From a virus, in IMG/VR virus record IMGVR_UViG_3300045988_059661: a stretch of 39,246 nucleotides of DNA. One strand, 5' to 3'. The first letter of the stretch is position 1. Each line of letters begins with the position of its first letter. Below the pieces are notes generated by a model. It did not search any database. It was given only the letters and a program-made list of their open reading frames with translations, and was not told the origin of the DNA. Made by a program: the position numbers and the translations under genes. This document shows, in pieces, positions 1 through 39,246 of the stretch.

Positions 1-119
1 CTTTTTAATCGTCGGGGGAAAGGCTCATTTTTCTTATACCTCACAGGAAGGAATAAACGCTGACTTGTCAACCGATGGAGTCTTAGGTTTTATTTTAAAA
101 TTATTAAAACAAAAAAAAG
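1..119 (+). repeat. Terminal direct repeat, copy 1 (identical to 39128-39246); contig-closure overlap or direct terminal repeat
   Basis: Exact 119/119 identity between the window start and end, read directly from the sequence. Confidence 0.95.
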
Positions 120-193
120 ACTCCCACGTATCCGTGGAAGTCCTTCAAAAAATTACTGATGATTTAAACATAAAAACGCCAAAAGACGACTAG
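2..193 (+). CDS. 3' portion of the wrap-around CDS (continues from 38316-39246); the unique part is 120-193 with TAG at 191-193
   Basis: The reading frame of the ORF starting at 38316 continues without interruption through the repeat (…LKLLKQKK|DSHVSVEVLQKITDDLNIKTPKDD*). Confidence 0.6.
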   Translation, partial: FLIVGGKAHFSYTSQEGINADLSTDGVLGFILKLLKQKKDSHVSVEVLQKITDDLNIKTPKDD

Positions 194-384
194 TTAATGA
201 CTAAATATTTTCGTCTCAGCGAAAATAGAACAATAATAACACTAGCAATCCATCTACCAATATCTATATATTGATTTAAGTAGATACCCCCTATATAGAG
301 ACCTAAAGAAATTATTATACACACGATTGATGTAAAAATAAGAAAGAGGAAAATTGTTGAAATTATTCCCCTGATTTTCCCCAT
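190..384 (-). CDS. Small two-TM membrane protein (64 aa), unknown function
   Basis: ATG at 384 preceded by GGAGGAGG at 5-nt spacing; two hydrophobic helices; convergent with the wrap-around gene. Confidence 0.45.
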   Translation of the reverse strand: MGKIRGIISTIFLFLIFTSIVCIIISLGLYIGGIYLNQYIDIGRWIASVIIVLFSLRRKYLVIN

Positions 385-455
385 AATACCTCCTCCTTCC
401 ATATATTGATCTTCTTTTTCTAATTGTATCACGTATTTTACATTTTATATATCGA

Positions 456-471
456 TTTTCCTATAGGAAAA
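456..471. promoter_or_regulatory. Perfect 16-bp palindrome TTTTCCTATAGGAAAA adjacent to the putative promoter of the 190-384 gene
   Basis: Self-complementary 16-mer; a minus-strand extended -10 (TGaTACAAT, 423-431) and TCGATA -35 lie just downstream. Confidence 0.3.
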
Positions 472-531
472 TATAATTTTGCTATACTTAGTTTTATTCC
501 CATTATCCATACGAATTTATTGAACGGGAGC

Positions 532-571
532 CTTATTAGCAGACCGACATTGATGTCGGTCTGCTAATAAG
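532..571. repeat. 40-bp inverted repeat with perfect 19-bp arms and a 2-bp centre (CTTATTAGCAGACCGACAT tg ATGTCGGTCTGCTAATAAG); a second 7-bp-stem hairpin follows at 572-593
   Basis: Exact reverse-complement arms; no U-tract on either strand. Confidence 0.9.
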
Positions 572-641
572 AAATGGCATATTTAAGCCATTTAAAGAAT
601 CTTAAAGAGTTTTTCTATTAAAATCTATGACAGAAGGAGGT

Positions 642-670
642 TTGACAGGAGCTTATTATCATGATATATT
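642..670 (+). promoter_or_regulatory. Sigma-A-type promoter upstream of the abi gene: -35 TTGACA (642-647), 17-bp spacer, TGn plus -10 TATATT (662-670)
   Basis: Consensus -35, optimal spacer and extended -10. Confidence 0.5.
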
Positions 671-710
671 ATGTCCATGGTATCTGGGGAGACTGAAAAG
701 TCGCAACCTG

Positions 711-750
711 AAAGAGCCGTGTACATAACACGTTATGTGCACGGCTCTTT
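711..750 (+). promoter_or_regulatory. Near-perfect 40-bp inverted repeat (19-bp arms, one mismatch) in the abi 5' leader; RNA hairpin followed by a U-rich tract (TTTATGTTATT); intrinsic-terminator/attenuator-like, or an operator
   Basis: AAAGAGCCGTGTACATAAC ac GTTATGTGCACGGCTCTTT; it ends 8 nt before the abi ATG at 759, and no SD precedes that ATG. Confidence 0.5.
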
Positions 751-758
751 ATGTTATT

Positions 759-1826
759 ATGAAACCATTTAAAACATACGATGAGCAAATCGAGCTTCTA
801 CAAAACCGCGGGCTTCTTCCTAATATTTCCGAAGTAACAGTTTTTCATATCAAAAATAGGCCCGATAAAGTATTACTCCCCGTTAACCCACTAAACATTA
901 GGAAACTTAACTTTTCCAAGTCACAAGCCACCAAATACGCAAAGGAGCTCCTACAAACATACGGGTATTATAATATTGTAAACCAATACAATAAGCCATT
1001 CTTACAGAGTGACGGAAATTACCAAGCTGATATCGACTTTTTCATGTTATTCAGCCTTCATCAGATTGATACTAAAATGGAAAATATTATTTTTTACCCT
1101 ATTTTACAAGTAGAGCAACGATTAAAAACCTGTATTGCATATGAATTTGCAAAATCTTACGGTCCATTTGAGGGAGATATTATTAAGAATTATATTGAGC
1201 CCTATTTCCAACCGGCTAATTATAATCAGTATTTAAAGACAAAAAAGGGGGTCCCTAAATACACCCTCCTGATTAAAAAATTAAAGGACATTTACGCAGA
1301 CGCTGAATACAAACCATTTCAACATTATAAAACTCATCATTCGCATATCCCAATTTGGGTATTTATAAATAAGCTTACTTATGGAGAATTGTTTCATTTT
1401 TACGAGGTTCTAAAAATTCAGCTAAATATAGCTGCCAATTTTAAGCTGACTCCCAGCCAACTTCGTACAATAATGTTATTTTTAAACCAAGTTAGAAATG
1501 ACTGTGCTCATTTCTCCGGATTTTATAACCAGCGATATCCCTATATAAAAAAAGATGTTCCTTTATTAAGTGCGTTTCAAAGTAAATTCTCTTTTCAGTC
1601 CCAACGGGAAGTCCCTAACATGTTTTTATTGCTTATCATTTTTAAATACTTATTACCTAAATCAAACTTTGATTTACTTTCAAAAACTGTAAAACGCGAA
1701 ATATTTGACTTTATTTCTGAGAAATATATCCCCAAAATAAGTGAGCATATGAAAGATAAACTAGCCATTCCCTCGAAAAAAGATTGTGACGATAAATTTA
1801 GTTTTTTAGAGCATTATAAAATATGA
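759..1826 (+). CDS. Abi_2-family abortive infection protein (AbiD/AbiF-like)
   Basis: N-terminus MKPFKTYDEQIELLQNRGL matches the conserved Abi_2 N-terminal motif; 355 aa; lies between the contig junction and int. Confidence 0.75.
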   Translation: MKPFKTYDEQIELLQNRGLLPNISEVTVFHIKNRPDKVLLPVNPLNIRKLNFSKSQATKYAKELLQTYGYYNIVNQYNKPFLQSDGNYQADIDFFMLFSLHQIDTKMENIIFYPILQVEQRLKTCIAYEFAKSYGPFEGDIIKNYIEPYFQPANYNQYLKTKKGVPKYTLLIKKLKDIYADAEYKPFQHYKTHHSHIPIWVFINKLTYGELFHFYEVLKIQLNIAANFKLTPSQLRTIMLFLNQVRNDCAHFSGFYNQRYPYIKKDVPLLSAFQSKFSFQSQREVPNMFLLLIIFKYLLPKSNFDLLSKTVKREIFDFISEKYIPKISEHMKDKLAIPSKKDCDDKFSFLEHYKI

Positions 1827-1832
1827 TTTTGC

Positions 1833-1862
1833 TAGTCCAGTATTTTGTCTAAAACTGGACTA
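1833..1862 (+). terminator. Stem-loop (9-bp stem TAGTCCAGT/ACTGGACTA, 12-nt loop) just after the abi stop; weak terminator or regulatory hairpin
   Basis: Perfect 9-bp inverted repeat 7 nt after the TGA at 1824-1826; no strong U-tract. Confidence 0.3.
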
Positions 1863-2015
1863 ACGACTAAAAAATGCCCGCACTCTGCTACCAACAGAAT
1901 ACGGGCGTGCCGGGTACTACCAATACCACGGCGATATAATCCACCTTCTCACGGGCTGATTACGCTATCAGTATATCATAATCAGCCCCTTTTCAGAAAG
2001 GAGCTGTATTTTTTT

Positions 2016-3245
2016 ATGATCTCTAAGAAAAAAGAAATATATTACGTCGTCATTACACAGAAAGACCCTTTGACGAATGCCTGGAAAAAGAAATGGATAC
2101 GATCCGGCACGAGTAAACGTGAGGCCGAAAAGCTTGAACGGAAACTTATGAGCGAGAAGGACGAAGGGGCAATTATTTTAACGGGAAGAGGAATTCCTAC
2201 ACTACTTGATTTTCTCACCAGGTGGCTCGACACGTGCATTAAACCGCCTGCTCGTAAGGTTGCTACTTATACTAATTACAGGGCTATCTGCAAGCGAGTT
2301 ATAGCTGATTTAGGTGGACATAAGCTTGATAAGGTTACGCCGCTTATGATTGCTACTTATTACAAAGAATTAAGTAGCCGAGGGCTTTCTAATACTACCA
2401 TTCGACTGACGCACCGCATCCTGAAGGCCGCGTTAGACCAAGCGGTAAAATGGCAGCTCTTAAATCGCAATCCGCTAATAGATATAGCTCCTCCGGCGCC
2501 GATTAAACCGAAAAATGAAGCCCTTACTACTACTGATGCATTGTCCTTAATTGAATACGCCACTGAACAGTCGAAACAATCAGGATACACTCGAAATAAA
2601 GTAAGCTGTATTCTTTTGCTCGGTATCTTCTGCGGATTGCGTCGTGGAGAGATTGCGGGGCTTCGTTGGCAAGACGTTGACTTTACCGAGTCTACTTTAC
2701 ACATCCGGCATAGTCTTTTGCGAATTCCCATTAATGATTTAGCCAGGCTTGATTATCCGTATATCAAAAGAAGCACAAATTCGGCCCTTGTATTAGACAC
2801 TGTAAAAACGGAAGCGTCTGATAATAGCATTATTGTTCCGCAGCATGTTATCTCTTTTCTTCGTCATGTAAAACACCAATACGACACTAACCGCATGCGA
2901 TTTGGGCCGCATTTTCATAATACCCAGTTCGTTATGGCCAATGAAATCGGAGACCCTTATGATCCGAACTGGTACCGCAAAACTCTACACAAGCTAATTC
3001 AATCCTACAATGATAGTCATCCAGGTCGTCCTCCGCTTCCTCTTATACGAGTTCACGACCTTCGGCATACGGCAGCCACTATCCTACTGGAAAATGATGT
3101 GGATATTAAGCTTGTAAGCCGTCAGCTTCGTCACTCGGATACGGGTATAACACAGAACCTCTATCAGCACGTGACGGAACGCCTGGAATCAAAGATTGCG
3201 AACACGCTAGACAGTCTAATGAATGCCGCCAATGCAGAAAAATAA
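2016..3245 (+). CDS. int: Tyrosine integrase (phage integrase family) with an N-terminal arm-binding AP2-like domain
   Basis: C-terminal HDLRHTAATILLENDVDIKLVSRQLRHSDTGITQNLYQHV (R…HxxR…Y catalytic motifs); ATG 2016 after AAAGGAG; the upstream part of the long ORF contains the hairpin and is probably non-coding. Confidence 0.9.
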   Translation: MISKKKEIYYVVITQKDPLTNAWKKKWIRSGTSKREAEKLERKLMSEKDEGAIILTGRGIPTLLDFLTRWLDTCIKPPARKVATYTNYRAICKRVIADLGGHKLDKVTPLMIATYYKELSSRGLSNTTIRLTHRILKAALDQAVKWQLLNRNPLIDIAPPAPIKPKNEALTTTDALSLIEYATEQSKQSGYTRNKVSCILLLGIFCGLRRGEIAGLRWQDVDFTESTLHIRHSLLRIPINDLARLDYPYIKRSTNSALVLDTVKTEASDNSIIVPQHVISFLRHVKHQYDTNRMRFGPHFHNTQFVMANEIGDPYDPNWYRKTLHKLIQSYNDSHPGRPPLPLIRVHDLRHTAATILLENDVDIKLVSRQLRHSDTGITQNLYQHVTERLESKIANTLDSLMNAANAEK

Positions 3246-3248
3246 GTT

Positions 3249-3287
3249 TATGGTAGAAAGTATGGTAGAAAACCTTCTTTCTACCAT
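3249..3287 (+). repeat. attP P-arm: tandem arm-type repeats TATGGTAGAAAG/TATGGTAGAAAA (3249-3272) plus an inverted copy TTCTACCAT (3279-3287)
   Basis: 12-bp unit repeated directly; it starts 4 nt after the int stop; the same unit recurs at 3516-3538. Confidence 0.55.
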
Positions 3288-3349
3288 TTATTTTTACTAA
3301 AAACAGACAAACAAAAAAGGACTGCAAATGCAGTCCCTGTCTTACAGTA

Positions 3350-3412
3350 TGGCGGAGAGTCAGGGATTTGAACCCTGGGTACGGAGTTCACCGCACACAT
3401 GATTTCCAATCA
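3350..3412 (-). tRNA. tRNA-Ser(GGA)-like 3' fragment (anticodon loop to CCA), the attP core; not a complete tRNA gene
   Basis: Minus strand reads tgaTTGGAAAtca…GCGGTGAACTCCGT (long variable arm)…CAGGGTTCAAATCCCTG (T-arm) ACTCTCC G CCA; no complementary 5' acceptor strand or D-arm upstream. Confidence 0.6.
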
Positions 3413-3515
3413 GTTTAGCCGATTCTTGTGCGTCAGTAGACAGTACGCTACATACCGTCATTAAGCCATTTCTTAGGTATCGCCCTTTGCTGTGCGGTGC
3501 AAATTTTTGAAACTT

Positions 3516-3538
3516 TGGTAGAAAATATGGTAGAAAAT
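3516..3538 (+). repeat. attP P'-arm: tandem arm-type repeats TTGGTAGAAAA/TATGGTAGAAAA
   Basis: Same 11-12-bp unit and orientation as 3249-3272; overlaps the stop codon of the RHH gene. Confidence 0.55.
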
Positions 3539-3699
3539 TAAGCTTCGTTAATTAGCCGGCGAATGGCTTCCGACCGGTTTAACCCTTGAGCCTCGGCATA
3601 CAAATCAAGTCGTTTTAAAGTTTCTTTATCGATCCGTAGCCTTATGGTCGTATCTTTCGGTGCATCCGTCGGACGACCTAACTTTTTTCCTTGATTCAT
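3538..3699 (-). CDS. Ribbon-helix-helix (CopG/Arc-like) DNA-binding protein, 53 aa; candidate regulator or recombination directionality factor
   Basis: MNQGKKLGRPT…IRLRIDKETLKRLDLYAEAQGLNRSEAIRRLI is an RHH pattern; ATG 3699 after AGGGGG. Confidence 0.65.
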   Translation of the reverse strand: MNQGKKLGRPTDAPKDTTIRLRIDKETLKRLDLYAEAQGLNRSEAIRRLINEA

Positions 3700-3703
3700 A
3701 TTA

Positions 3704-3850
3704 CTACCCCCTAATAATCCGTTTAATGGCCTCACAATAAACCAATCCCGTTATTATAGCTTTGAACGTATCAAATGTATGCGGAAGTACTACCGTCATA
3801 GAAATTGCCGCCGCCAAATACGCCAATCCTATCATGCGTCTATTGTTCAT
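3704..3850 (-). CDS. Small membrane protein (48 aa)
   Basis: ATG 3850 after AAGGGAG; one hydrophobic helix; the TAG overlaps the RBS of the RHH gene. Confidence 0.35.
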   Translation of the reverse strand: MNNRRMIGLAYLAAAISMTVVLPHTFDTFKAIITGLVYCEAIKRIIRG

Positions 3851-3922
3851 TTTCACTGCTCCCTTCTGATATATGTTATAATGGGAGAAGGTCGGGGGCT
3901 TTCGCCCCCTTCCCCCGCCTCG

Positions 3923-4039
3923 TTATCTCCGCTTATGCTTGCTAGGCTTTCGGCGATTTCGGGGCTTTTCCTTACTCCAGATTGCCAGCGCTATCGATAC
4001 TAGCAATCCGATGAGCCACTCCCAATCGGCTCGTTCCAT
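3923..4039 (-). CDS. Small membrane protein (38 aa) with a basic C-tail
   Basis: ATG 4039 after GGAGGTG; MERADWEWLIGLLVSIALAIW then KR-rich. Confidence 0.35.
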   Translation of the reverse strand: MERADWEWLIGLLVSIALAIWSKEKPRNRRKPSKHKRR

Positions 4040-4119
4040 CTTTTCTCACCTCCTGATTATATTATATATTATGTAGCTACAAAAGTCAAGTATTTTCTTG
4101 ATTTTCACACATAAAAAAA

Positions 4120-4149
4120 GGCCTCCCAGAATATACTGGAAGGCCTTTT
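4120..4149. terminator. Bidirectional rho-independent terminator ending the minus-strand late/lysis operon
   Basis: AAGGCCTCCCAG…CTGGAAGGCCTT hairpin flanked by A7 (4113-4119) and T4 (4146-4149). Confidence 0.7.
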
Positions 4150-4151
4150 GC

Positions 4152-4433
4152 TTATTTCTTACTCAATTCGGTAAGTCCGTCTTGAATTGTCTGTATGATA
4201 TTGTCTATCGCAGAATTAATGACTCGCAGATAAATCCGATTACGAATCTTTACCCATACGGATTGAGTCGTTTCGATTTCTGCCTGTAACGGTGCTGTAA
4301 TCGTCTTCAATTGTTCTGCAACTAGCGGTCGCAAATCATCGGCAGATAACGCCGCTAACGTAGCCGTCGCTTGGTCTTTTGCCGCCTGTGCTGCTTCCTT
4401 GGCAAGAATGTTCAAGATTTGTTTTTTGTCCAT
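4152..4433 (-). CDS. Hypothetical protein (93 aa), last gene of the lysis cassette
   Basis: AAGGAG RBS; Ala/Gln-rich predicted helical protein. Confidence 0.55.
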   Translation of the reverse strand: MDKKQILNILAKEAAQAAKDQATATLAALSADDLRPLVAEQLKTITAPLQAEIETTQSVWVKIRNRIYLRVINSAIDNIIQTIQDGLTELSKK

Positions 4434-4455
4434 AATTATCGCTCCTTATAAAACA

Positions 4456-5034
4456 TTAAATATTCTTTAACCCGCCGTAAGCACGGTACCAGTTAGCGTT
4501 TCCTCTCAACTGGTTGCCGCCTGTGCCGGGTTCTTCGCCGTTCCTTAAGACCCACAAATCCCACCGTTCACCGGTACTGTTCGGGCCGTAATCTTCATGG
4601 GTATTCAGGCCGTCTTCATTGTCAGCCGCTTCGGCGTGCGTCATGACTCGATTTAAATCGATAGTCAAATCAAGTGCATCAGCAAGTACGCATATAACTT
4701 GTGACACTGCATTAATTTGTGCTTCTGTCGGCGGATAAGGGCCCAGATTATCAGGCCCCGTTGCATCGTAAGCGCAGCACAAAGTAATAGCTATACTGCC
4801 GGTATTACGCCGATACGTTGCCGATTTGACCTCAGCTAAATCATTCGTCGATACAAATACCCTGCCGTCGCCTGTGATATTCACGTGGTAATCATCGAAC
4901 GTTTGGTCATAACGAGCTGCCGTCCAATGGATATACAGTTTAACATCACGATCAAGACTTCTCGCTCCATTCCACAGGTCCCAATATGCCGCCTTTGCTA
5001 AGGACTTCAATTCGTGTAGCGTTACTTCTCTCAT
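4456..5034 (-). CDS. Endolysin, N-acetylmuramoyl-L-alanine amidase (Amidase_2/PGRP-like); catalytic domain only
   Basis: Amidase_2-like motifs (…YHVNITGDG…THAEAAD…); AAAGGAG RBS; directly follows the holin. Confidence 0.75.
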   Translation of the reverse strand: MREVTLHELKSLAKAAYWDLWNGARSLDRDVKLYIHWTAARYDQTFDDYHVNITGDGRVFVSTNDLAEVKSATYRRNTGSIAITLCCAYDATGPDNLGPYPPTEAQINAVSQVICVLADALDLTIDLNRVMTHAEAADNEDGLNTHEDYGPNSTGERWDLWVLRNGEEPGTGGNQLRGNANWYRAYGGLKNI

Positions 5035-36241: not shown

Positions 36242-36451
36242 TCAATCATTAGCGTTTCCTCCCGTCGCTTTGCTATCGAGCCATGCTCGGATTTCCCATC
36301 CGGCAAAACGTATTTCTGATTTTTCGGTAAGCTTAATGTGCGGTATTTCGCCCGTTTTTACCCACTTATAAACGTTCTGAATATCAGTGTGTAACAACCT
36401 TGCGATTTCTACTGCCGAGTACATAATGTCGGCGATAATTCGTTGTTCCAT
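36242..36451 (-). CDS. Excisionase/AlpA-like HTH_17 DNA-binding protein
   Basis: YSAVEIARLLHTDIQNVYKWVKTGEIPHIKL…EIRAWL. Confidence 0.65.
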   Translation of the reverse strand: MEQRIIADIMYSAVEIARLLHTDIQNVYKWVKTGEIPHIKLTEKSEIRFAGWEIRAWLDSKATGGNAND

Positions 36452-36465
36452 TTAAGGCTCCTTTC

Positions 36466-36636
36466 TTAATAATGCTCAACGTGGAACATTAGCTCCTCAT
36501 GCGTTTTCTCCGAGTCGTCAAGTGTCAGCTTGTCGGCTCTTTTTCTGTGGACAAATTCCATGGCCTTAACGATGCATTGCCATTCGTACCAGGGAAGCTT
36601 TTCAGCTTCTCGTAAAATGATTTCCGTCGGACTCAT
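36466..36636 (-). CDS. Small hypothetical protein (56 aa)
   Basis: ATG 36636 after GGAGGGAAG; below the 60-aa ORF-track threshold. Confidence 0.45.
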   Translation of the reverse strand: MSPTEIILREAEKLPWYEWQCIVKAMEFVHRKRADKLTLDDSEKTHEELMFHVEHY

Positions 36637-36669
36637 CTGCTTCCCTCCTTATTTGCGGTTGTTGTTTTT

Positions 36670-36690
36670 TTGTTGATTATTAATCAACAA
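36670..36690. promoter_or_regulatory. Operator-like palindrome TTGTTGATTA t TAATCAACAA
   Basis: Perfect 10-bp arms; the half-site recurs at 36993-37003 and 36961-36970 in the cro/cI intergenic region; overlaps the cro stop. Confidence 0.5.
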
Positions 36691-36895
36691 TTTGAGCAAA
36701 AAAAATTGCATTCCTATCCTCGGGAGAAAGATTTAATGCCTTACTAAGACAAATAATTTCCGAACACCGGAAATCATTCTTTCCATTCAGCTTATTGTAC
36801 AATCCTTGAGGAGTTAAGCCGCAGGCTTCTGCTAATGCGTAAATCTTAATCCCAGACTTGTTGATTCGATTCTTTAAAAGCTCGTAATTGATCAT
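36680..36895 (-). CDS. Cro-like XRE-family HTH regulator (71 aa)
   Basis: MINYELLKNRINKSGIKIYALAEACGLTPQGLYNKLNG; ATG 36895 after GGAGG; divergent from the cI-like gene. Confidence 0.75.
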   Translation of the reverse strand: MINYELLKNRINKSGIKIYALAEACGLTPQGLYNKLNGKNDFRCSEIICLSKALNLSPEDRNAIFFAQIVD

Positions 36896-36937
36896 CTTTA
36901 CACCTCCTCTCAATGTTGATTTAAAATCTACAATCAC

Positions 36938-36967
36938 ATAATAGCATTCATGATTCCATCTTGTCAA
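36938..36967 (-). promoter_or_regulatory. Putative early lytic promoter (PR-like): -35 TTGACA (36962-36967), 18-bp spacer, -10 TATTAT (36938-36943)
   Basis: Consensus -35 inside the operator half-site TTGTTGACAA. Confidence 0.5.
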
Positions 36968-36995
36968 CAAAATTTTCCTATTTCGTAAATTTTTG

Positions 36996-37024
36996 TTGAT
37001 TATTTTGAAACGGTCTGCTATAAT
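36996..37024 (+). promoter_or_regulatory. Putative repressor promoter: -35 TTGATT (36996-37001), 17-bp spacer, -10 TATAAT (37019-37024)
   Basis: The -35 overlaps the operator half-site TTGTTGATTAT; RBS AAAGGAG at 37032-37038. Confidence 0.5.
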
Positions 37025-37046
37025 TCCCCCAAAAGGAGATATTCAT

Positions 37047-37424
37047 ATGGAAACTATTTATGAACGCATTCGGCGATTAAGACAAGAAAACAATATGTCT
37101 CAAGACGAATTGGCAAAGAAAACCGGATACACTTCTCGCAGTACGATTAATAAAATTGAAGCTGGAAAGATTGATATATCACGGGCAAAAATCAAGGTTT
37201 TTGCCGACGCTCTTGGAGTTACCCCAGCATACTTAATGGGATGGGAAGACGAATCGGAACAAGGCTACTACACCGACCCAGAGGTAGCGGAATACGCCGA
37301 AGAGCTGAGGACGAATCCTAAGTACCGGCTGCTATTCGACGCTAGCAAGGATTTAAGCAAGGAAGATATAGATTTCGTGGTCGATATGATAGAACGATTA
37401 AAAGCCCGTGAAGGGAAGGAATAA
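37047..37424 (+). CDS. CI/ImmR-like XRE-family repressor (125 aa)
   Basis: HTH QDELAKKTGYTSRSTINKIEAGK; ATG 37047 after AAAGGAG. Confidence 0.8.
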   Translation: METIYERIRRLRQENNMSQDELAKKTGYTSRSTINKIEAGKIDISRAKIKVFADALGVTPAYLMGWEDESEQGYYTDPEVAEYAEELRTNPKYRLLFDASKDLSKEDIDFVVDMIERLKAREGKE

Positions 37425-37429
37425 AAAAC

Positions 37430-37696
37430 TTGAACGTTACGCTATTGTACGCTGAATTGAAACCGTCTCAGACGGCTGTAGTCCGTGAGAATGAAGACGG
37501 CTCTTATACTATATTAATCAACAAAAATAAATGCCCTGAACGGCAAATTCAGGGCGTATTACACGAACTGGCACATATTAAGAACGATGACTTTAGCAGC
37601 GACTTACACGCTGACATGGTAGAGTCGTTACTACATAATGCAACTCCCTGCCCTCGTGTAGCTGAAGACGTCGAGTTTTACTGCCGGGTTGTATAA
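37430..37696 (+). CDS. Short ImmA/IrrE-like HEXXH metallopeptidase (88 aa); putative anti-repressor protease
   Basis: GVLHELAHIKNDD (HEXXH); TTG start 9 nt after GGGAAGGA; immediately downstream of the repressor. Confidence 0.6.
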   Translation: MNVTLLYAELKPSQTAVVRENEDGSYTILINKNKCPERQIQGVLHELAHIKNDDFSSDLHADMVESLLHNATPCPRVAEDVEFYCRVV

Positions 37697-37736
37697 ATGA
37701 CAGAGTTTATGTAAGAAGAAAAATTAGGAGGATTTT

Positions 37737-38177
37737 ATGAAAAAATTGCTATTAACCATTTTATGCGTACTCATTTGTCCCCTTGCGGTTAACGCCGTTA
37801 ATTACGTCCAGATCTCAAAGAATATAGAATCAGCCGTCTTTGTCGACAATGATAGCATTTCTGTAATCCGCTATGCACCACCATATTATGTTATTCAATG
37901 TGATGAACGAATTCACAGTTTTACAATGGGAAAATGGGCTCAAATAACGAGCCAATATCTCTATGACTATGATAATCAGATTATTAAAAAACGATATGTT
38001 AGCATGAAAGCAAGAAAAGAAGATTCCCCTTGGAGTAATCCTATTAAATATACAAGGATAGACGACGTTAGTAAAAATCAATCCAACTGGTGGATAGCCA
38101 ATTACATCTTCAACAAGGCGTATAACATGTATTTCTCTCCGGAAGTGCAGGCCAAGTATGGAGCCAAGCATACATAA
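37737..38177 (+). CDS. Secreted protein (signal peptide MKKLLLTILCVLICPLAVNA), unknown function
   Basis: AGGAGG RBS at 6-nt spacing; N-terminal signal peptide. Confidence 0.7.
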   Translation: MKKLLLTILCVLICPLAVNAVNYVQISKNIESAVFVDNDSISVIRYAPPYYVIQCDERIHSFTMGKWAQITSQYLYDYDNQIIKKRYVSMKARKEDSPWSNPIKYTRIDDVSKNQSNWWIANYIFNKAYNMYFSPEVQAKYGAKHT

Positions 38178-38315
38178 TGGCCCTGCCTTCTACTCAAACG
38201 AAGAAATAAACGACCTTCCCGTAACCATTATCGGCAAGGTCATTGAACTGCGGCGATCGTTTTAAAATAATCTCATCTATTTTGATAGACCATTTTTTCA
38301 AGGAGGTATATACCA

Positions 38316-39246
38316 TTGCTTTCCACCGTTACAGAAAAAGACTTGTTAAAGTATCTAAAAGAAGAACATCTGCTCCCCGTTGAGGTTCCCCGTAGAAATT
38401 ATTGGTTTCTGAGAACAAATAGTGGAGATTTTTTTGAAGAGTTCTATGGAAACGACTATGTAGCCATCGGTTGGGACGATATACAACCTATTGCCGAAAA
38501 AGAACGGACCGAAGAGATTCTGAAAGGATATAAATTGATATATGGCCGGATGACTACTCGGATTATGAATCAGGTTTACAGATTCTGTTATGAAATGAAA
38601 AAGGGCGATATTGTGATTATTCCTGCAGCTCGTTCTAACTGGTTTGCCTTTGGTGTCTTAACGGAAGATTCCTGGTACGAAGAAACATTGACGGATGAAG
38701 TTCTTGAAGATGAAGATGCCTGCCATTTTAAAAAGAGACGTTCTGTTAAATGGATTCAATCAGCAAAAAAACACATGGTCGATTCAAAACTATATCTATT
38801 TTTTAGAAACCAACAGGCCTTATCCAAAGCAAATGACTATGCAGAATTTATAGAAAGAGCTATAAACCCGTACTATATTCTTGACGGCGTTGCTCATATT
38901 AATTTTGCTGTGCAGAAAAAAACAAATATCCCGGCTCTTTACTTACCTTTATTTATTACCGGCTTACTGGAATACGCATCCACGTTAAGTAATTCGATTG
39001 ACAGTCGACAATCGGAAACAGAAGACACTTTTTCTAATGAAATTTCAACTAGAATAAACGTTCAAAGTCCCGGAGTTATTGAGTTTCTCGGTGACCCGTT
39101 GAAAATACATTGCCTTGCGATTATTGGCTTTTTAATCGTCGGGGGAAAGGCTCATTTTTCTTATACCTCACAGGAAGGAATAAACGCTGACTTGTCAACC
39201 GATGGAGTCTTAGGTTTTATTTTAAAATTATTAAAACAAAAAAAAG
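38316..39246 (+). CDS. 5' portion of the wrap-around CDS (about 334 aa total; continues at 120-193): PUA-like (EVE/ASCH-type) N-terminal domain (hypothesis) plus an uncharacterised C-terminal half with two hydrophobic segments
   Basis: TTG 38316, 9 nt after AGGAGG; N-terminus …RRNYWFLRTNSGDFFEEFYGNDYVAIGWDD…RIMNQVYRFCYEMKKGDIVIIPAARSNWFAFGVLTED resembles the EVE consensus. Confidence 0.6.
   Translation, partial: MLSTVTEKDLLKYLKEEHLLPVEVPRRNYWFLRTNSGDFFEEFYGNDYVAIGWDDIQPIAEKERTEEILKGYKLIYGRMTTRIMNQVYRFCYEMKKGDIVIIPAARSNWFAFGVLTEDSWYEETLTDEVLEDEDACHFKKRRSVKWIQSAKKHMVDSKLYLFFRNQQALSKANDYAEFIERAINPYYILDGVAHINFAVQKKTNIPALYLPLFITGLLEYASTLSNSIDSRQSETEDTFSNEISTRINVQSPGVIEFLGDPLKIHCLAIIGFLIVGGKAHFSYTSQEGINADLSTDGVLGFILKLLKQKK
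39128..39246 (+). repeat. Terminal direct repeat, copy 2 (identical to 1-119)
   Basis: Exact identity. Confidence 0.95.

What the first reader, a model, noticed from the sequence alone, without database searches (positions are those of the whole stretch)
642..758. Abi_2 gene driven by a consensus promoter but gated by a 40-bp leader hairpin with U-tract and no SD
A TTGACA -35, 17-bp spacer and TGn-TATATT -10 form a strong promoter. The roughly 80-nt leader folds into an 18-bp near-perfect hairpin (711-750) followed by UUUAUGUUAUU. That hairpin ends 8 nt before the abi ATG, which lacks a Shine-Dalgarno. This looks like an attenuator or terminator controlling a potentially toxic Abi gene. Alternatively the inverted repeat is an operator for a dimeric repressor.
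Basis: partly seen in the sequence, partly recalled or inferred. Interest (0 to 1): 0.55.

Follow-up and report, generated by a model that had tools for sequence, protein, structure and literature searches.

The report
Antitoxin RNA leader of phage AbiF toxin
The promoter and hairpin in front of this phage abortive-infection gene belong to a conserved small structured RNA, most likely the RNA antitoxin of a known AbiD/F-type toxin-antitoxin defence system, in a sequence variant that no RNA database family covers.

Summary
There is a consensus extended -10 promoter at 642-670, an 18-bp hairpin at 711-750, and an abi ATG at 759 with no Shine-Dalgarno.

The hairpin is only the 3' part of an ~82-nt leader (677-758). 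The same leader precedes 76 homologous abi genes (37 distinct leaders) in Veillonella/Negativicutes prophages. Its nucleotides are more conserved than the coding sequence.

Covariation supports two RNA helices:
- the terminator hairpin.

All wobble pairs fit the + strand only, which argues against a DNA operator.

The protein is an Abi_2 HEPN protein. Its only solved relative is PbAbiF bound to its ncRNA (8VZ6).

Promoter, short terminated RNA, then abi is the published hallmark of the AbiD/F group (AbiD1, RCd22/AbiF). There the RNA is a type III antitoxin and the terminator sets the RNA:toxin ratio. That is the most likely mechanism here (inferred).

The RNA does not match Rfam abiF (RF03085), so I rate it a new variant of a known kind.

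One extra finding is unresolved. Bases 669-681, which overlap the promoter, covary with the hairpin's 5' arm. This may be an antiterminator used only by transcripts that start upstream.

The parts
634..640 (+). Conserved purine block AAGGAGG just 5' of the -35. Function unexplained. It may be UP-element-like. It is not an SD for any conserved ORF.
   Evidence: AAGGAG(G) or a one-base variant (AAGGAT, AAGGGG, AAGGGAG, ATGGAG) lies 1-4 nt upstream of the -35 in all distinct leaders, and sequence further upstream is unrelated between contexts.
642..670 (+). Sigma-70-type promoter: -35 TTGACA (642-647), 17-bp spacer, extended -10 TGATATATT (662-670).
   Evidence: Matches 11 of 12 positions plus TG. 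The hexamers, the TG and the spacer length are conserved in 37 distinct leaders, while the spacer sequence varies.
669..681 (+). S1: a segment complementary to the 5' arm of the hairpin (716-728). It overlaps the end of the -10, the discriminator and +1 to +5.
   Evidence: 13 positions give 10 Watson-Crick pairs, 2 G.U and 1 mismatch. Across the family the helix has 15 pairs, 84% of cells paired and 7 pairs with compensatory changes; slid controls give 27-52%. Cognate pairing beats non-cognate pairing.
677..677 (+). Predicted transcription start (A, 7 nt after the -10).
   Evidence: Inference: in every leader the 7th base after the -10 is an A preceded by C or T. By analogy, the RCd22 5' end mapped by RACE lies 5-7 nt after its -10 (PMC12373285). 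Not measured here.
677..758 (+). The whole leader, a candidate ~80-nt ncRNA (predicted antitoxin RNA).
   Evidence: Covariance model R1 gives 80.7 bits here. This is the only + strand match in the window. It gives 70-88 bits directly upstream of every close-family abi gene whose leader is fully present in the locus held, and nothing upstream of distant Abi_2 genes. Leader nucleotide identity is 60-75%, against 44-67% for the CDS.
686..709 (+). P1 motif. Outer helix G686-G688 with C707-U709. 5' bulge G689 A690. Inner hairpin 691-694 with 699-702 and a GAAA loop. 3' internal loop GCAA 703-706.
   Evidence: The flanks CUGGGGAG and GCAACCUG are nearly invariant. The inner helix is 98.8% paired, and 4 of 5 pairs have compensatory changes. 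The outer 3 pairs never vary, so they give no evidence either way.
711..750 (+). Intrinsic-terminator hairpin: arms 711-728 and 733-750, loop CACG 729-732.
   Evidence: Terminator scan. 94% of cells are paired and 11 of 16 pairs have compensatory changes. The wobbles fit the + strand only.
751..758 (+). U-rich tail AUGUUAUU running into the start codon. No SD.
   Evidence: Homologues have UUUUUAUUAUU or UUUUUUUGUUGCU.
759..1826 (+). abi gene, 355 aa: an Abi_2 / AbiD-F family HEPN protein (predicted toxin RNase).
   Evidence: Pfam Abi_2 1.3e-31. PADLOC AbiD 4e-36. PHROG 'abortive infection resistance protein' 2.8e-47. R246 and H251 of the RNDCAH motif are invariant (D248 nearly so) and align with the catalytic R210 and H215 of PbAbiF. 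Family profile against 8VZ6: E = 3.9e-11. AF2 model (pLDDT 90) against 8VZ6_A: E = 1.2e-6, TM 0.68, the only significant PDB hit.

Best explanation
Bases 642-1826 are a two-part AbiD/F-type abortive-infection module, a type III toxin-antitoxin-like system, carried in the lysogeny block of a temperate phage.

Proposed mechanism:
1. A strong constitutive promoter (642-670) starts transcription at about 677.
2. Most transcripts stop at the hairpin and U-tract (711-758). This gives an ~80-nt RNA whose conserved core is the P1 hairpin with its GA/GCAA internal loop (686-709).
3. By analogy with AbiFr/PbAbiF and RCd22/AbiFCd, this RNA binds the Abi HEPN dimer and blocks its RNase site. It is the antitoxin.
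4. Only rare read-through transcripts carry the abi ORF. Their translation is weak because the AUG has no SD and sits 8 nt after a -27 kcal/mol hairpin. RNA antitoxin is therefore in large excess over toxin.
5. Loss of the RNA, or a phage trigger during infection, would free the RNase and abort the infection.

Shown here:
- the promoter, the two RNA helices and the missing SD are conserved or covary across the family;
- the protein is a homologue of PbAbiF.

Inferred:
- the transcription start site;
- actual termination;
- RNA-protein binding;
- toxicity;
- the trigger.
For: Protein identity:
- Pfam Abi_2 and PADLOC AbiD.
- The family profile hits only 8VZ6, 'PbAbiF dimer bound to ncRNA', E = 3.9e-11.
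- The AF2 model hits only 8VZ6_A.
- The HEPN R and H are invariant.

Leader conservation:
- The same architecture occurs in 76 loci with 37 distinct leaders.
- The leader is more conserved than the CDS. The same is reported for lactococcal AbiD/F, where upstream regions are 68-80% identical and genes 46-65% (PMC13064643).

RNA structure:
- 96% of cells are paired and 15 pairs carry compensatory changes, with 0 of 500 shuffles as high. Slid controls give 23-56%.
- The wobbles fit the + strand only.
- The model matches only next to close-family abi genes.

Terminator and SD:
- The terminator anatomy is confirmed.
- No family member has an SD.

Experimental precedent:
- abiD1: the only visible transcript from its promoter is a 50-nt RNA that stops at a terminator just upstream of the gene, and read-through gives the mRNA (PMC2661086).
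- abiF and abiD-like are active or clonable only with their upstream promoter-terminator region (PMC11381338).
- RCd22: promoter, ncRNA, terminator, then abiF. Deleting the RNA raises abiF 17-fold, and the RNA neutralises the toxin in cis and in trans by direct binding (PMC12373285).
- The PbAbiF-ncRNA structure (described in PMC12737573).
Against: - The RNA does not match the curated abiF motif RF03085, even at E <= 10 on a 241-nt query. RF03085 does score 37.6 bits on the phiC2 positive control. Homology of the RNA to known AbiF antitoxins is therefore not shown; only a similar topology is seen.
- There is one motif copy per RNA, against two in RCd22.
- No transcript, binding or toxicity data exist for this family.
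- The U-tract of this particular copy is interrupted (UUUAUGUUAUU), so termination could be leaky.
- The conserved complementarity of S1 to the hairpin's 5' arm is not explained by a plain antitoxin-plus-terminator model.
Confidence: 0.65

Rival explanations
1. Promoter-position-dependent antitermination. This is an extension of the best explanation and is compatible with it.
- S1 (669-681) is the 5' strand of an antiterminator that pairs with the hairpin's 5' arm (716-728).
- The module's own promoter sits inside S1. RNAs started at 677 therefore lack most of S1, and they terminate to give the antitoxin RNA.
- Transcripts arriving from upstream genes (the repressor operon) carry S1. They fold S1:arm5 around P1 before the 3' arm is made, read through, and leave the AUG region single-stranded.
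- Toxin (and downstream int) would then come from upstream transcription, and antitoxin from the internal promoter.
For: - The S1:arm5 helix has 15 pairs, 84% of cells paired and 7 pairs with compensatory changes (for example AU10/CG7/GC4 and UA12/CG9/UG3). Slid controls give 27-52%.
- Cognate S1:arm5 duplexes average -10.45 kcal/mol, non-cognate -8.44; none of 10000 permutations did as well.
- The signal lies in the bases upstream of the predicted start (p = 0.0004-0.005) and not in the transcribed part (p = 0.8).
- Partial transcripts that include S1 fold into one long S1-P1-arm5 hairpin of -19 to -26 kcal/mol in every lineage tested.
- In 5 of 9 contexts examined, a co-directional gene ends 24-120 nt upstream with no terminator.
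- The window is a circular genome (119-nt terminal repeat). The + strand repressor block 36993-38853 points toward abi-int, and no + strand terminator was found in the stretch scanned, 36400-39246.
Against: - In this window the nearest upstream gene (190-432) is on the opposite strand, and a 19-bp hairpin (530-570) lies in between.
- In L157 a canonical terminator sits immediately upstream of the module. Read-through is therefore not universal.
- The alignment was fitted to the structure and the sequences are related, so the counts lean toward the helix.
- TGTACA is a palindrome, so part of the complementarity comes for free.
- No transcript data exist.
Confidence: 0.3
2. A purely cis-acting leader. 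The RNA is only an attenuator and translational gate. P1 is the binding site of a host or phage factor that relieves termination or activates translation on infection, as phage Orf1 does for abiD1 mRNA. The RNA has no antitoxin role in trans.
For: - In AbiD1, phage Orf1 and cold activate translation of the mRNA, and the terminator and leader structure keep expression low (PMC2661086).
- The hairpin lies 8 nt from an SD-less AUG.
- Nothing computed here shows RNA-protein binding.
Against: - The closest solved relative of the protein is an RNA-bound toxin.
- RCd22 acts in trans by direct binding (PMC12373285).
- The AbiD/F group is now regarded as protein-plus-RNA systems (PMC13064643).
- The near-invariant single-stranded bases (GA, GCAA) in a small hairpin fit a site for the co-evolving cis-encoded protein. 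The module recurs in many different contexts with only abi in common.
Confidence: 0.15
3. The inverted repeat 711-750 (with the related S1 copy at the promoter) is a DNA operator for a dimeric repressor that shuts off the abi promoter.
For: - The repeat is nearly palindromic and contains TGTACA.
- A third related copy overlaps the -10 and +1 region.
Against: - The arms change sequence between lineages while pairing is kept: 11 of 16 pairs have compensatory changes.
- Dozens of cells are G.U on the + strand, which is meaningless for duplex DNA.
- The hairpin lies 34-73 nt downstream of the start, not over the promoter.
- No DNA-binding gene travels with the module.
- The AF2 model shows no HTH-like N-terminal domain.
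Confidence: 0.03

Closest known systems
RCd22 / AbiFCd of the Clostridioides difficile phi027 prophage, also in phiC2 (PMC12373285)
   Same: - Prophage-borne Abi_2 HEPN toxin.
- SigA-type promoter, then a structured ncRNA, then a Rho-independent terminator, then abi on one strand.
- The short RNA is the main product and read-through gives the mRNA.
- The RNA is the antitoxin (shown experimentally there, inferred here).
   Different: - RCd22 has two RF03085 abiF motifs (37.6 and 19.5 bits in phiC2). It is 168 nt from start to ATG, and abiF has an RBS (AGGTGA).
- Here there is one motif of different sequence with no RF03085 match, 82 nt from start to ATG, and no SD.
- Here the terminator abuts the AUG, and an extra S1:arm5 complementarity is present.
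- The proteins belong to the same Pfam family but are only distantly related.
PbAbiF-AbiFr ribonucleoprotein (PDB 8VZ6; Zilberzwige-Tal et al. 2025, as described in PMC12737573 and PMC13064643)
   Same: - It is the only solved relative by sequence profile (E = 3.9e-11) and by fold (TM 0.68).
- The catalytic R and H align.
- A cis-encoded upstream ncRNA blocks the HEPN site.
   Different: - Identity is 18%, and the Prevotellaceae protein is 300 aa against 355 aa here.
- The AbiFr sequence could not be compared with these tools.
- RNA binding by the window protein is untested.
Lactococcal AbiD1 / AbiF / AbiD-like upstream region (PMC2661086, PMC11381338)
   Same: - A strong promoter plus a terminator lies just upstream of the abi gene.
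- A ~50-nt terminated RNA is the only abundant transcript.
- The upstream region is more conserved than the gene and is needed for function or clonability.
   Different: - abiD1 has a weak RBS sequestered by a second stem-loop, and its leader is 76 nt.
- Activation by phage Orf1 is documented there.
- The lactococcal leaders could not be fetched here for comparison.
ToxIN / AbiQ classical type III toxin-antitoxin systems (from memory, and as summarised in PMC12373285)
   Same: Promoter, antitoxin RNA, terminator, then toxin gene, with the terminator setting the RNA:toxin ratio.
   Different: - ToxI is a tandem array of 36-nt repeats cut by the toxin, and ToxN is not a HEPN protein.
- Here there is a single non-repeated motif.

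Membership tests
AbiD/F group (Pfam Abi_2, PF07751) HEPN toxins | Abi_2 domain above the Pfam gathering score | tested here: met
   110.8 bits against a cut-off of 25.6, E = 1.3e-31, covering the full profile 1-184. PADLOC AbiD 4e-36.
AbiD/F group (Pfam Abi_2, PF07751) HEPN toxins | HEPN Rx4H catalytic motif | tested here: met
   RNDCAH at 246-251. R, N, C, A and H are invariant in 32 family members. It aligns with R210 and H215 of PbAbiF, whose R210A+H215A variant is inactive (PMC12373285).
AbiD/F group (Pfam Abi_2, PF07751) HEPN toxins | Fold like the solved AbiF | tested here: met
   The AF2 model has pLDDT 90 and pTM 0.87. Foldseek against the PDB finds only 8vz6_A: E = 1.2e-6, probability 1.00, TM 0.58/0.68.
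AbiD/F group (Pfam Abi_2, PF07751) HEPN toxins | Toxic RNase activity and phage resistance | not testable with these tools
   Needs expression and plaque assays.
AbiF-type type III toxin-antitoxin (protein plus cis ncRNA) | Conserved structured RNA immediately upstream of the toxin gene and co-oriented with it | tested here: met
   37 distinct leaders; covariation in the P1 inner helix and in the terminator. The model hits only upstream of family genes.
AbiF-type type III toxin-antitoxin (protein plus cis ncRNA) | Own promoter, and an intrinsic terminator between the RNA and the toxin ORF | tested here: met
   Met at the sequence level only. Transcript ends were not measured.
AbiF-type type III toxin-antitoxin (protein plus cis ncRNA) | The RNA binds the toxin and neutralises it | not testable with these tools
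   Inferred from 8VZ6 and RCd22 only.
Rfam abiF RNA (RF03085) | Match to the covariance model at the gathering score (37 bits) | tested here: not met
   No RF03085 hit at E <= 10 in window 1-4500 or 560-800. No hit at gathering score in 6 close and 14 distant homologue loci. Positive control phiC2: 37.6 bits. Conversely, model R1 finds nothing in phiC2.
Rfam abiF RNA (RF03085) | Topology: a two-step hairpin with a 1-2 nt 5' bulge containing A, and a larger 3' internal loop containing CAA | tested here: inconclusive
   The RF03085 consensus is CCCGCC-A-AGC...GCU-CAAAUC-GGCGGG. The window has GGG-GA-GACU GAAA AGUC-GCAA-CCU. The layout is similar. The helix lengths and sequences differ, and the outer helix here is invariant, so it is untested by covariation.
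Intrinsic (Rho-independent) terminator | Stable G+C-containing stem followed by a U-tract, on the transcribed strand | tested here: met
   18 pairs, 7 of them G-C, with tail (UUU)AUGUUAUU. Stems are -17 to -29 kcal/mol, and most homologues have 4-8 U. The wobbles fit the + strand only. Termination itself was not measured.
DNA operator palindrome | Half-site sequence conserved as such, with no selection for pairing | tested here: not met
   11 of 16 stem pairs show compensatory double changes, with frequent G.U.

The most novel reading that the evidence does not exclude
The abi leader may be a two-state switch read out by where transcription begins.
- The internal promoter is embedded in the 5' strand (S1, 669-681) of an antiterminator.
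- RNAs started at the module's own promoter cannot form the antiterminator. They terminate and become antitoxin RNA.
- RNAs entering from the upstream lysogeny operon can form it, and they read through into the SD-less toxin gene (and int).
- This would uncouple antitoxin and toxin synthesis in a type III toxin-antitoxin-like defence module. I know of no such design described for these systems. The nearest analogy, from memory, is start-site-dependent leader folding at E. coli pyrC.
- The P1 RNA would also be a previously uncatalogued class of AbiD/F antitoxin RNA.
Probability: 0.3. Interest if true: 0.6.

Novelty: new variant of a known kind. Interest (0 to 1): 0.42.

Why it matters
AbiD/F proteins are now seen as the toxin-antitoxin ancestors of Cas13, with the upstream ncRNA as the forerunner of the crRNA.

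So far, sequence motifs for these RNAs come mainly from the RF03085 abiF motif. This window and its 76 relatives define a second, well-supported RNA partner class in Negativicutes (Veillonella) prophages of the human microbiome. It comes with a ready covariance model and clear mutational targets (GGGGAG, GCAA, the inner helix).

It shows that:
- absence of an RF03085 hit does not mean absence of the RNA component;
- automatic gene calls in this family wrongly translate the RNA as N-terminal extensions.

The S1 complementarity, if functional, would add a new way of setting toxin:antitoxin ratios.

If none of the inferred steps hold, this is still an ordinary, already-explained promoter-terminator leader of an Abi gene.

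Tried and rejected
- **Rfam scans.** I scanned the window (E <= 10) and 20 homologue loci. There were only chance miRNA-like hits on the hairpin and no abiF motif.
- **Phage DNA search.** blastn of 400-2000 against the phage collection found no match. tblastn against phages and plasmids found only relatives below 30% identity, so it was not useful for leader comparison.
- **abiD1 leader.** Fetching pIL105 (AF116286) to compare the abiD1 leader failed because the record is not held.
- **Primary PbAbiF paper.** It is not in the library, so the AbiFr sequence could not be compared.
- **Leaderless small ORF from AUG 677 (32 aa, to 772).** Rejected. The AUG is ACG in the L038 group, and the frame stops after 12 codons in L001.
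- **AAGGAGG as an SD.** Rejected. TTG is 1 nt away and the next ATG or GTG is ~20 nt away.
- **Pairing of the 5' end AUGGU with codons 2-4 (ACCAU), seen in the MFE fold.** Rejected. ACGGA variants are not compensated in the CDS.
- **S1 and the 3' arm as a ToxI-like tandem repeat unit.** Rejected. There is no similarity beyond 12 nt, and the model finds a single copy.
- **Inversion between S1 and the 5' arm.** Rejected as implausible, because the repeats are only 36 bp apart.
- **Minus-strand RNA.** Rejected, because the wobbles would become A.C mismatches.
- **Weak R1 hits upstream of distant Abi_2 genes.** These are plain terminators without P1.

Full report
**1. What is in the sequence**

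The finding is accurate.
- TTGACA (642-647), a 17-bp spacer and TGATATATT (662-670) give the best promoter match in the first 3 kb: 11 of 12 positions plus the extended -10 TG.
- Bases 711-728 and 733-750 form an 18-bp stem around the loop CACG. That is 17 Watson-Crick pairs plus U722.G739. The terminator scan flags it.
- The leader folds far better than shuffles: -39 kcal/mol, z = -7.4, 0 of 200.
- The conserved N-terminus MKPFKTY puts the abi start at ATG 759, 8 nt after the stem.
- There is no Shine-Dalgarno. The anti-SD duplex is -1.7 kcal/mol here. Four other genes of the same phage give -6.0 to -8.8, and two further ORF starts, whose start codons are uncertain, also scored near 0.
The free tail is AUGUUAUU.

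**2. The gene**

- The 355-aa product is an Abi_2 protein (Pfam 1.3e-31). PADLOC calls it AbiD. PHROGs calls it an abortive-infection resistance protein.
- Its RNDCAH motif (246-251; R246 and H251 invariant in the family) aligns with the catalytic R210 and H215 of PbAbiF.
- A family profile hits one PDB sequence only: 8VZ6, 'PbAbiF dimer bound to ncRNA', E = 3.9e-11.
- An AlphaFold2 model (pLDDT 90) hits the same chain and nothing else: E = 1.2e-6, TM 0.68.

**3. The context**

- The window is a complete circular temperate siphophage genome. Its first and last 119 nt are identical.
- It encodes a tape-measure protein, portal, primase, endolysin and an HTH repressor.
- abi lies in the + strand lysogeny block, upstream of a tyrosine integrase (2016-3245).
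- Next to int is an attP-like 3' fragment of a tRNA gene.

**4. The leader is a conserved RNA, not just a hairpin**

- Homologues at 40-98% protein identity were found in Veillonella parvula, other Negativicutes, human-associated metagenomes and IMG/VR viral contigs. That gives 76 loci with 37 distinct leaders.
- Every leader has the same order:
  - AAGGAG(G);
  - -35;
  - a 17(18)-bp variable spacer;
  - TGnTAnAnT;
  - GTGTACATGG-like discriminator and start;
  - ATCTGGGGAG;
  - a variable hairpin;
  - GCAACCTG;
  - an A-run;
  - a long hairpin;
  - a U-tract;
  - ATG without SD.
- Gene callers have translated this leader as spurious N-terminal extensions. That is how the conservation first showed up.
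- Leader nucleotide identity to the window is 60-75%. For the coding sequence it is 44-67%.
- RNAalifold and a covariance-model alignment support two helices:
  - the inner helix of the P1 hairpin (window 691-694 with 699-702) is 98.8% paired, and 4 of 5 pairs have compensatory changes;
  - the terminator stem is 94% paired, and 11 of 16 pairs have compensatory changes.
- Overall 96% of cells are paired, against 23-56% when partners are slid. No shuffle of 500 reaches the observed covariation.
- The three outer P1 pairs (GGG:CCU) never vary, so they are neither supported nor contradicted.
- Every wobble is G.U on the + strand. The functional form is therefore + strand RNA, and a DNA operator is very unlikely.
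- The model matches once in the window (677-758, 80.7 bits). Elsewhere it matches only directly upstream of close-family abi genes.

**5. Comparison with what is known**

The arrangement of strong promoter, short terminated RNA, then abi gene is the published signature of the AbiD/F group.
- abiD1: the only visible transcript from the promoter is a 50-nt RNA ending at a terminator just upstream of the gene, and read-through gives the unstable mRNA (PMC2661086).
- abiF and abiD-like work or can be cloned only with their upstream promoter-terminator region (PMC11381338). Those upstream regions are more conserved than the genes (PMC13064643).
- C. difficile: RCd22 (promoter, two abiF motifs, terminator, abiF) lowers abiF expression 17-fold. 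It neutralises the toxin in cis and in trans by direct binding (PMC12373285).
- The PbAbiF structure shows the ncRNA blocking the HEPN site (PMC12737573, PMC13064643).

The most likely mechanism here is therefore the same. The ~80-nt leader RNA is the antitoxin. The hairpin is its terminator and sets a high RNA:toxin ratio. The missing SD next to a stable hairpin further limits toxin synthesis. These functional steps are inferred, not shown.

**6. How it differs**

- The RNA is not a member of Rfam abiF (RF03085). There is no hit even at E <= 10 on a 241-nt query, nor in homologue loci. The same search recovers both motifs of phiC2 (37.6 and 19.5 bits). My model finds nothing in phiC2.
- The layouts resemble each other: a two-step hairpin, a small 5' bulge with A, and a larger 3' internal loop containing CAA. 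Helix lengths and sequences differ.
- There is one motif per RNA rather than two.
- There is no RBS at all in any family member.
- The terminator abuts the AUG.

**7. An unexpected extra**

- Bases 669-681 (S1) are complementary to the 5' arm of the hairpin (716-728). S1 spans the last two bases of the -10, the discriminator and +1 to +5.
- Across the family this helix has 15 pairs, 84% of cells paired and 7 pairs with compensatory changes. Slid controls give 27-52%.
- Cognate S1/arm pairs bind better than non-cognate pairs.
- Differences between S1 and the reverse complement of the arm are mostly wobble-preserving transitions.
- The signal lies mainly in bases upstream of the expected start. 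That start is A677, a conserved A preceded by C or T, 7 nt after the -10.
- RNAs made from the module's own promoter would therefore lack most of S1. RNAs entering from upstream would carry it, and would fold S1:arm5 around P1 at -19 to -26 kcal/mol before the 3' arm emerges.
- In 5 of 9 contexts examined, a co-directional gene ends 24-120 nt upstream without a terminator.
- In this circular genome the repressor operon points toward abi-int.
- This suggests termination that depends on where transcription started. It is unproven and depends on the real start site.
- In this window an opposite-strand gene (190-432) and a hairpin (530-570) lie upstream.
- In L157 a terminator directly precedes the module.

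**8. Verdict**

The operator alternative is not supported.
- The system is a new sequence and structure variant of the known AbiD/F protein-plus-RNA (type III toxin-antitoxin-like) kind.
- The possible promoter-embedded antiterminator is the only really novel lead.

Noticed in passing
window 1-119 and 39128-39246: The first and last 119 nt are identical. The window is therefore a circularly closed assembly of a ~39.1-kb temperate siphophage genome. It carries lysis, tail, head, portal, primase and repressor modules, mostly on the minus strand.
   Followed up: partly
window ~3350-3413 (minus strand): A 3' portion (~60 nt) of a tRNA-Ser(GGA)-like gene lies between int and the lysis module. It has the anticodon loop UUGGAAA, a long variable arm, the T arm, the acceptor strand and CCA. 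This is the attP configuration. ARAGORN finds no complete tRNA, and Rfam gives a partial T-arm-like hit at 3353-3406.
   Followed up: partly
window 634-640, and the same position in all homologous leaders: The purine block AAGGAG(G), or a one-base variant, is conserved 1-4 nt upstream of the -35. Everything further upstream differs between contexts. It is not an SD for any conserved ORF. It may be UP-element-like or part of upstream-derived transcripts.
   Followed up: partly
window 530-592: A perfect 19-bp hairpin (530-570) is followed by a small hairpin (571-592), about 50-110 nt upstream of the abi promoter. Neither strand has a U-tract. It is specific to this phage and is not part of the conserved module.
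   Followed up: no
window 1834-1906: Two hairpins lie between the abi stop and int: 1834-1861 and 1876-1906. The second looks like a terminator only on the minus strand, although no minus-strand gene ends there.
   Followed up: no
window 735-758; proteins P0001, P0003, P0006, P0009, P0010, P0016, P0020, P0023-25, P0027, P0030: Public gene calls for this family start inside or upstream of the leader RNA. They carry 5-43 spurious N-terminal residues, which are the translated ncRNA (for example ...CTWYLGRL..CNL.E...).
   Followed up: yes
L152 1673-1955; L149 and L157 downstream: In one relative a second Abi_2 gene follows the first directly. In at least two others, as in the window, a tyrosine integrase follows abi.
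   Followed up: no
L081, L083, L084, L090, L091, L140 at ~1841-1896; L015 1731-1792: Distant Abi_2 genes (about 25-29% identity) also have a terminator-like hairpin close to the start of the gene, but no P1 motif and no RF03085 hit. Other uncatalogued AbiD/F leader RNAs may exist.
   Followed up: partly
window 3538-3735 (minus strand): A 65-aa ORF next to attP has a ribbon-helix-helix-like sequence (…TIRLRIDKETLKRLDLYAEAQGLNRSEAIRRLI…). It was not searched against any library.
   Followed up: no
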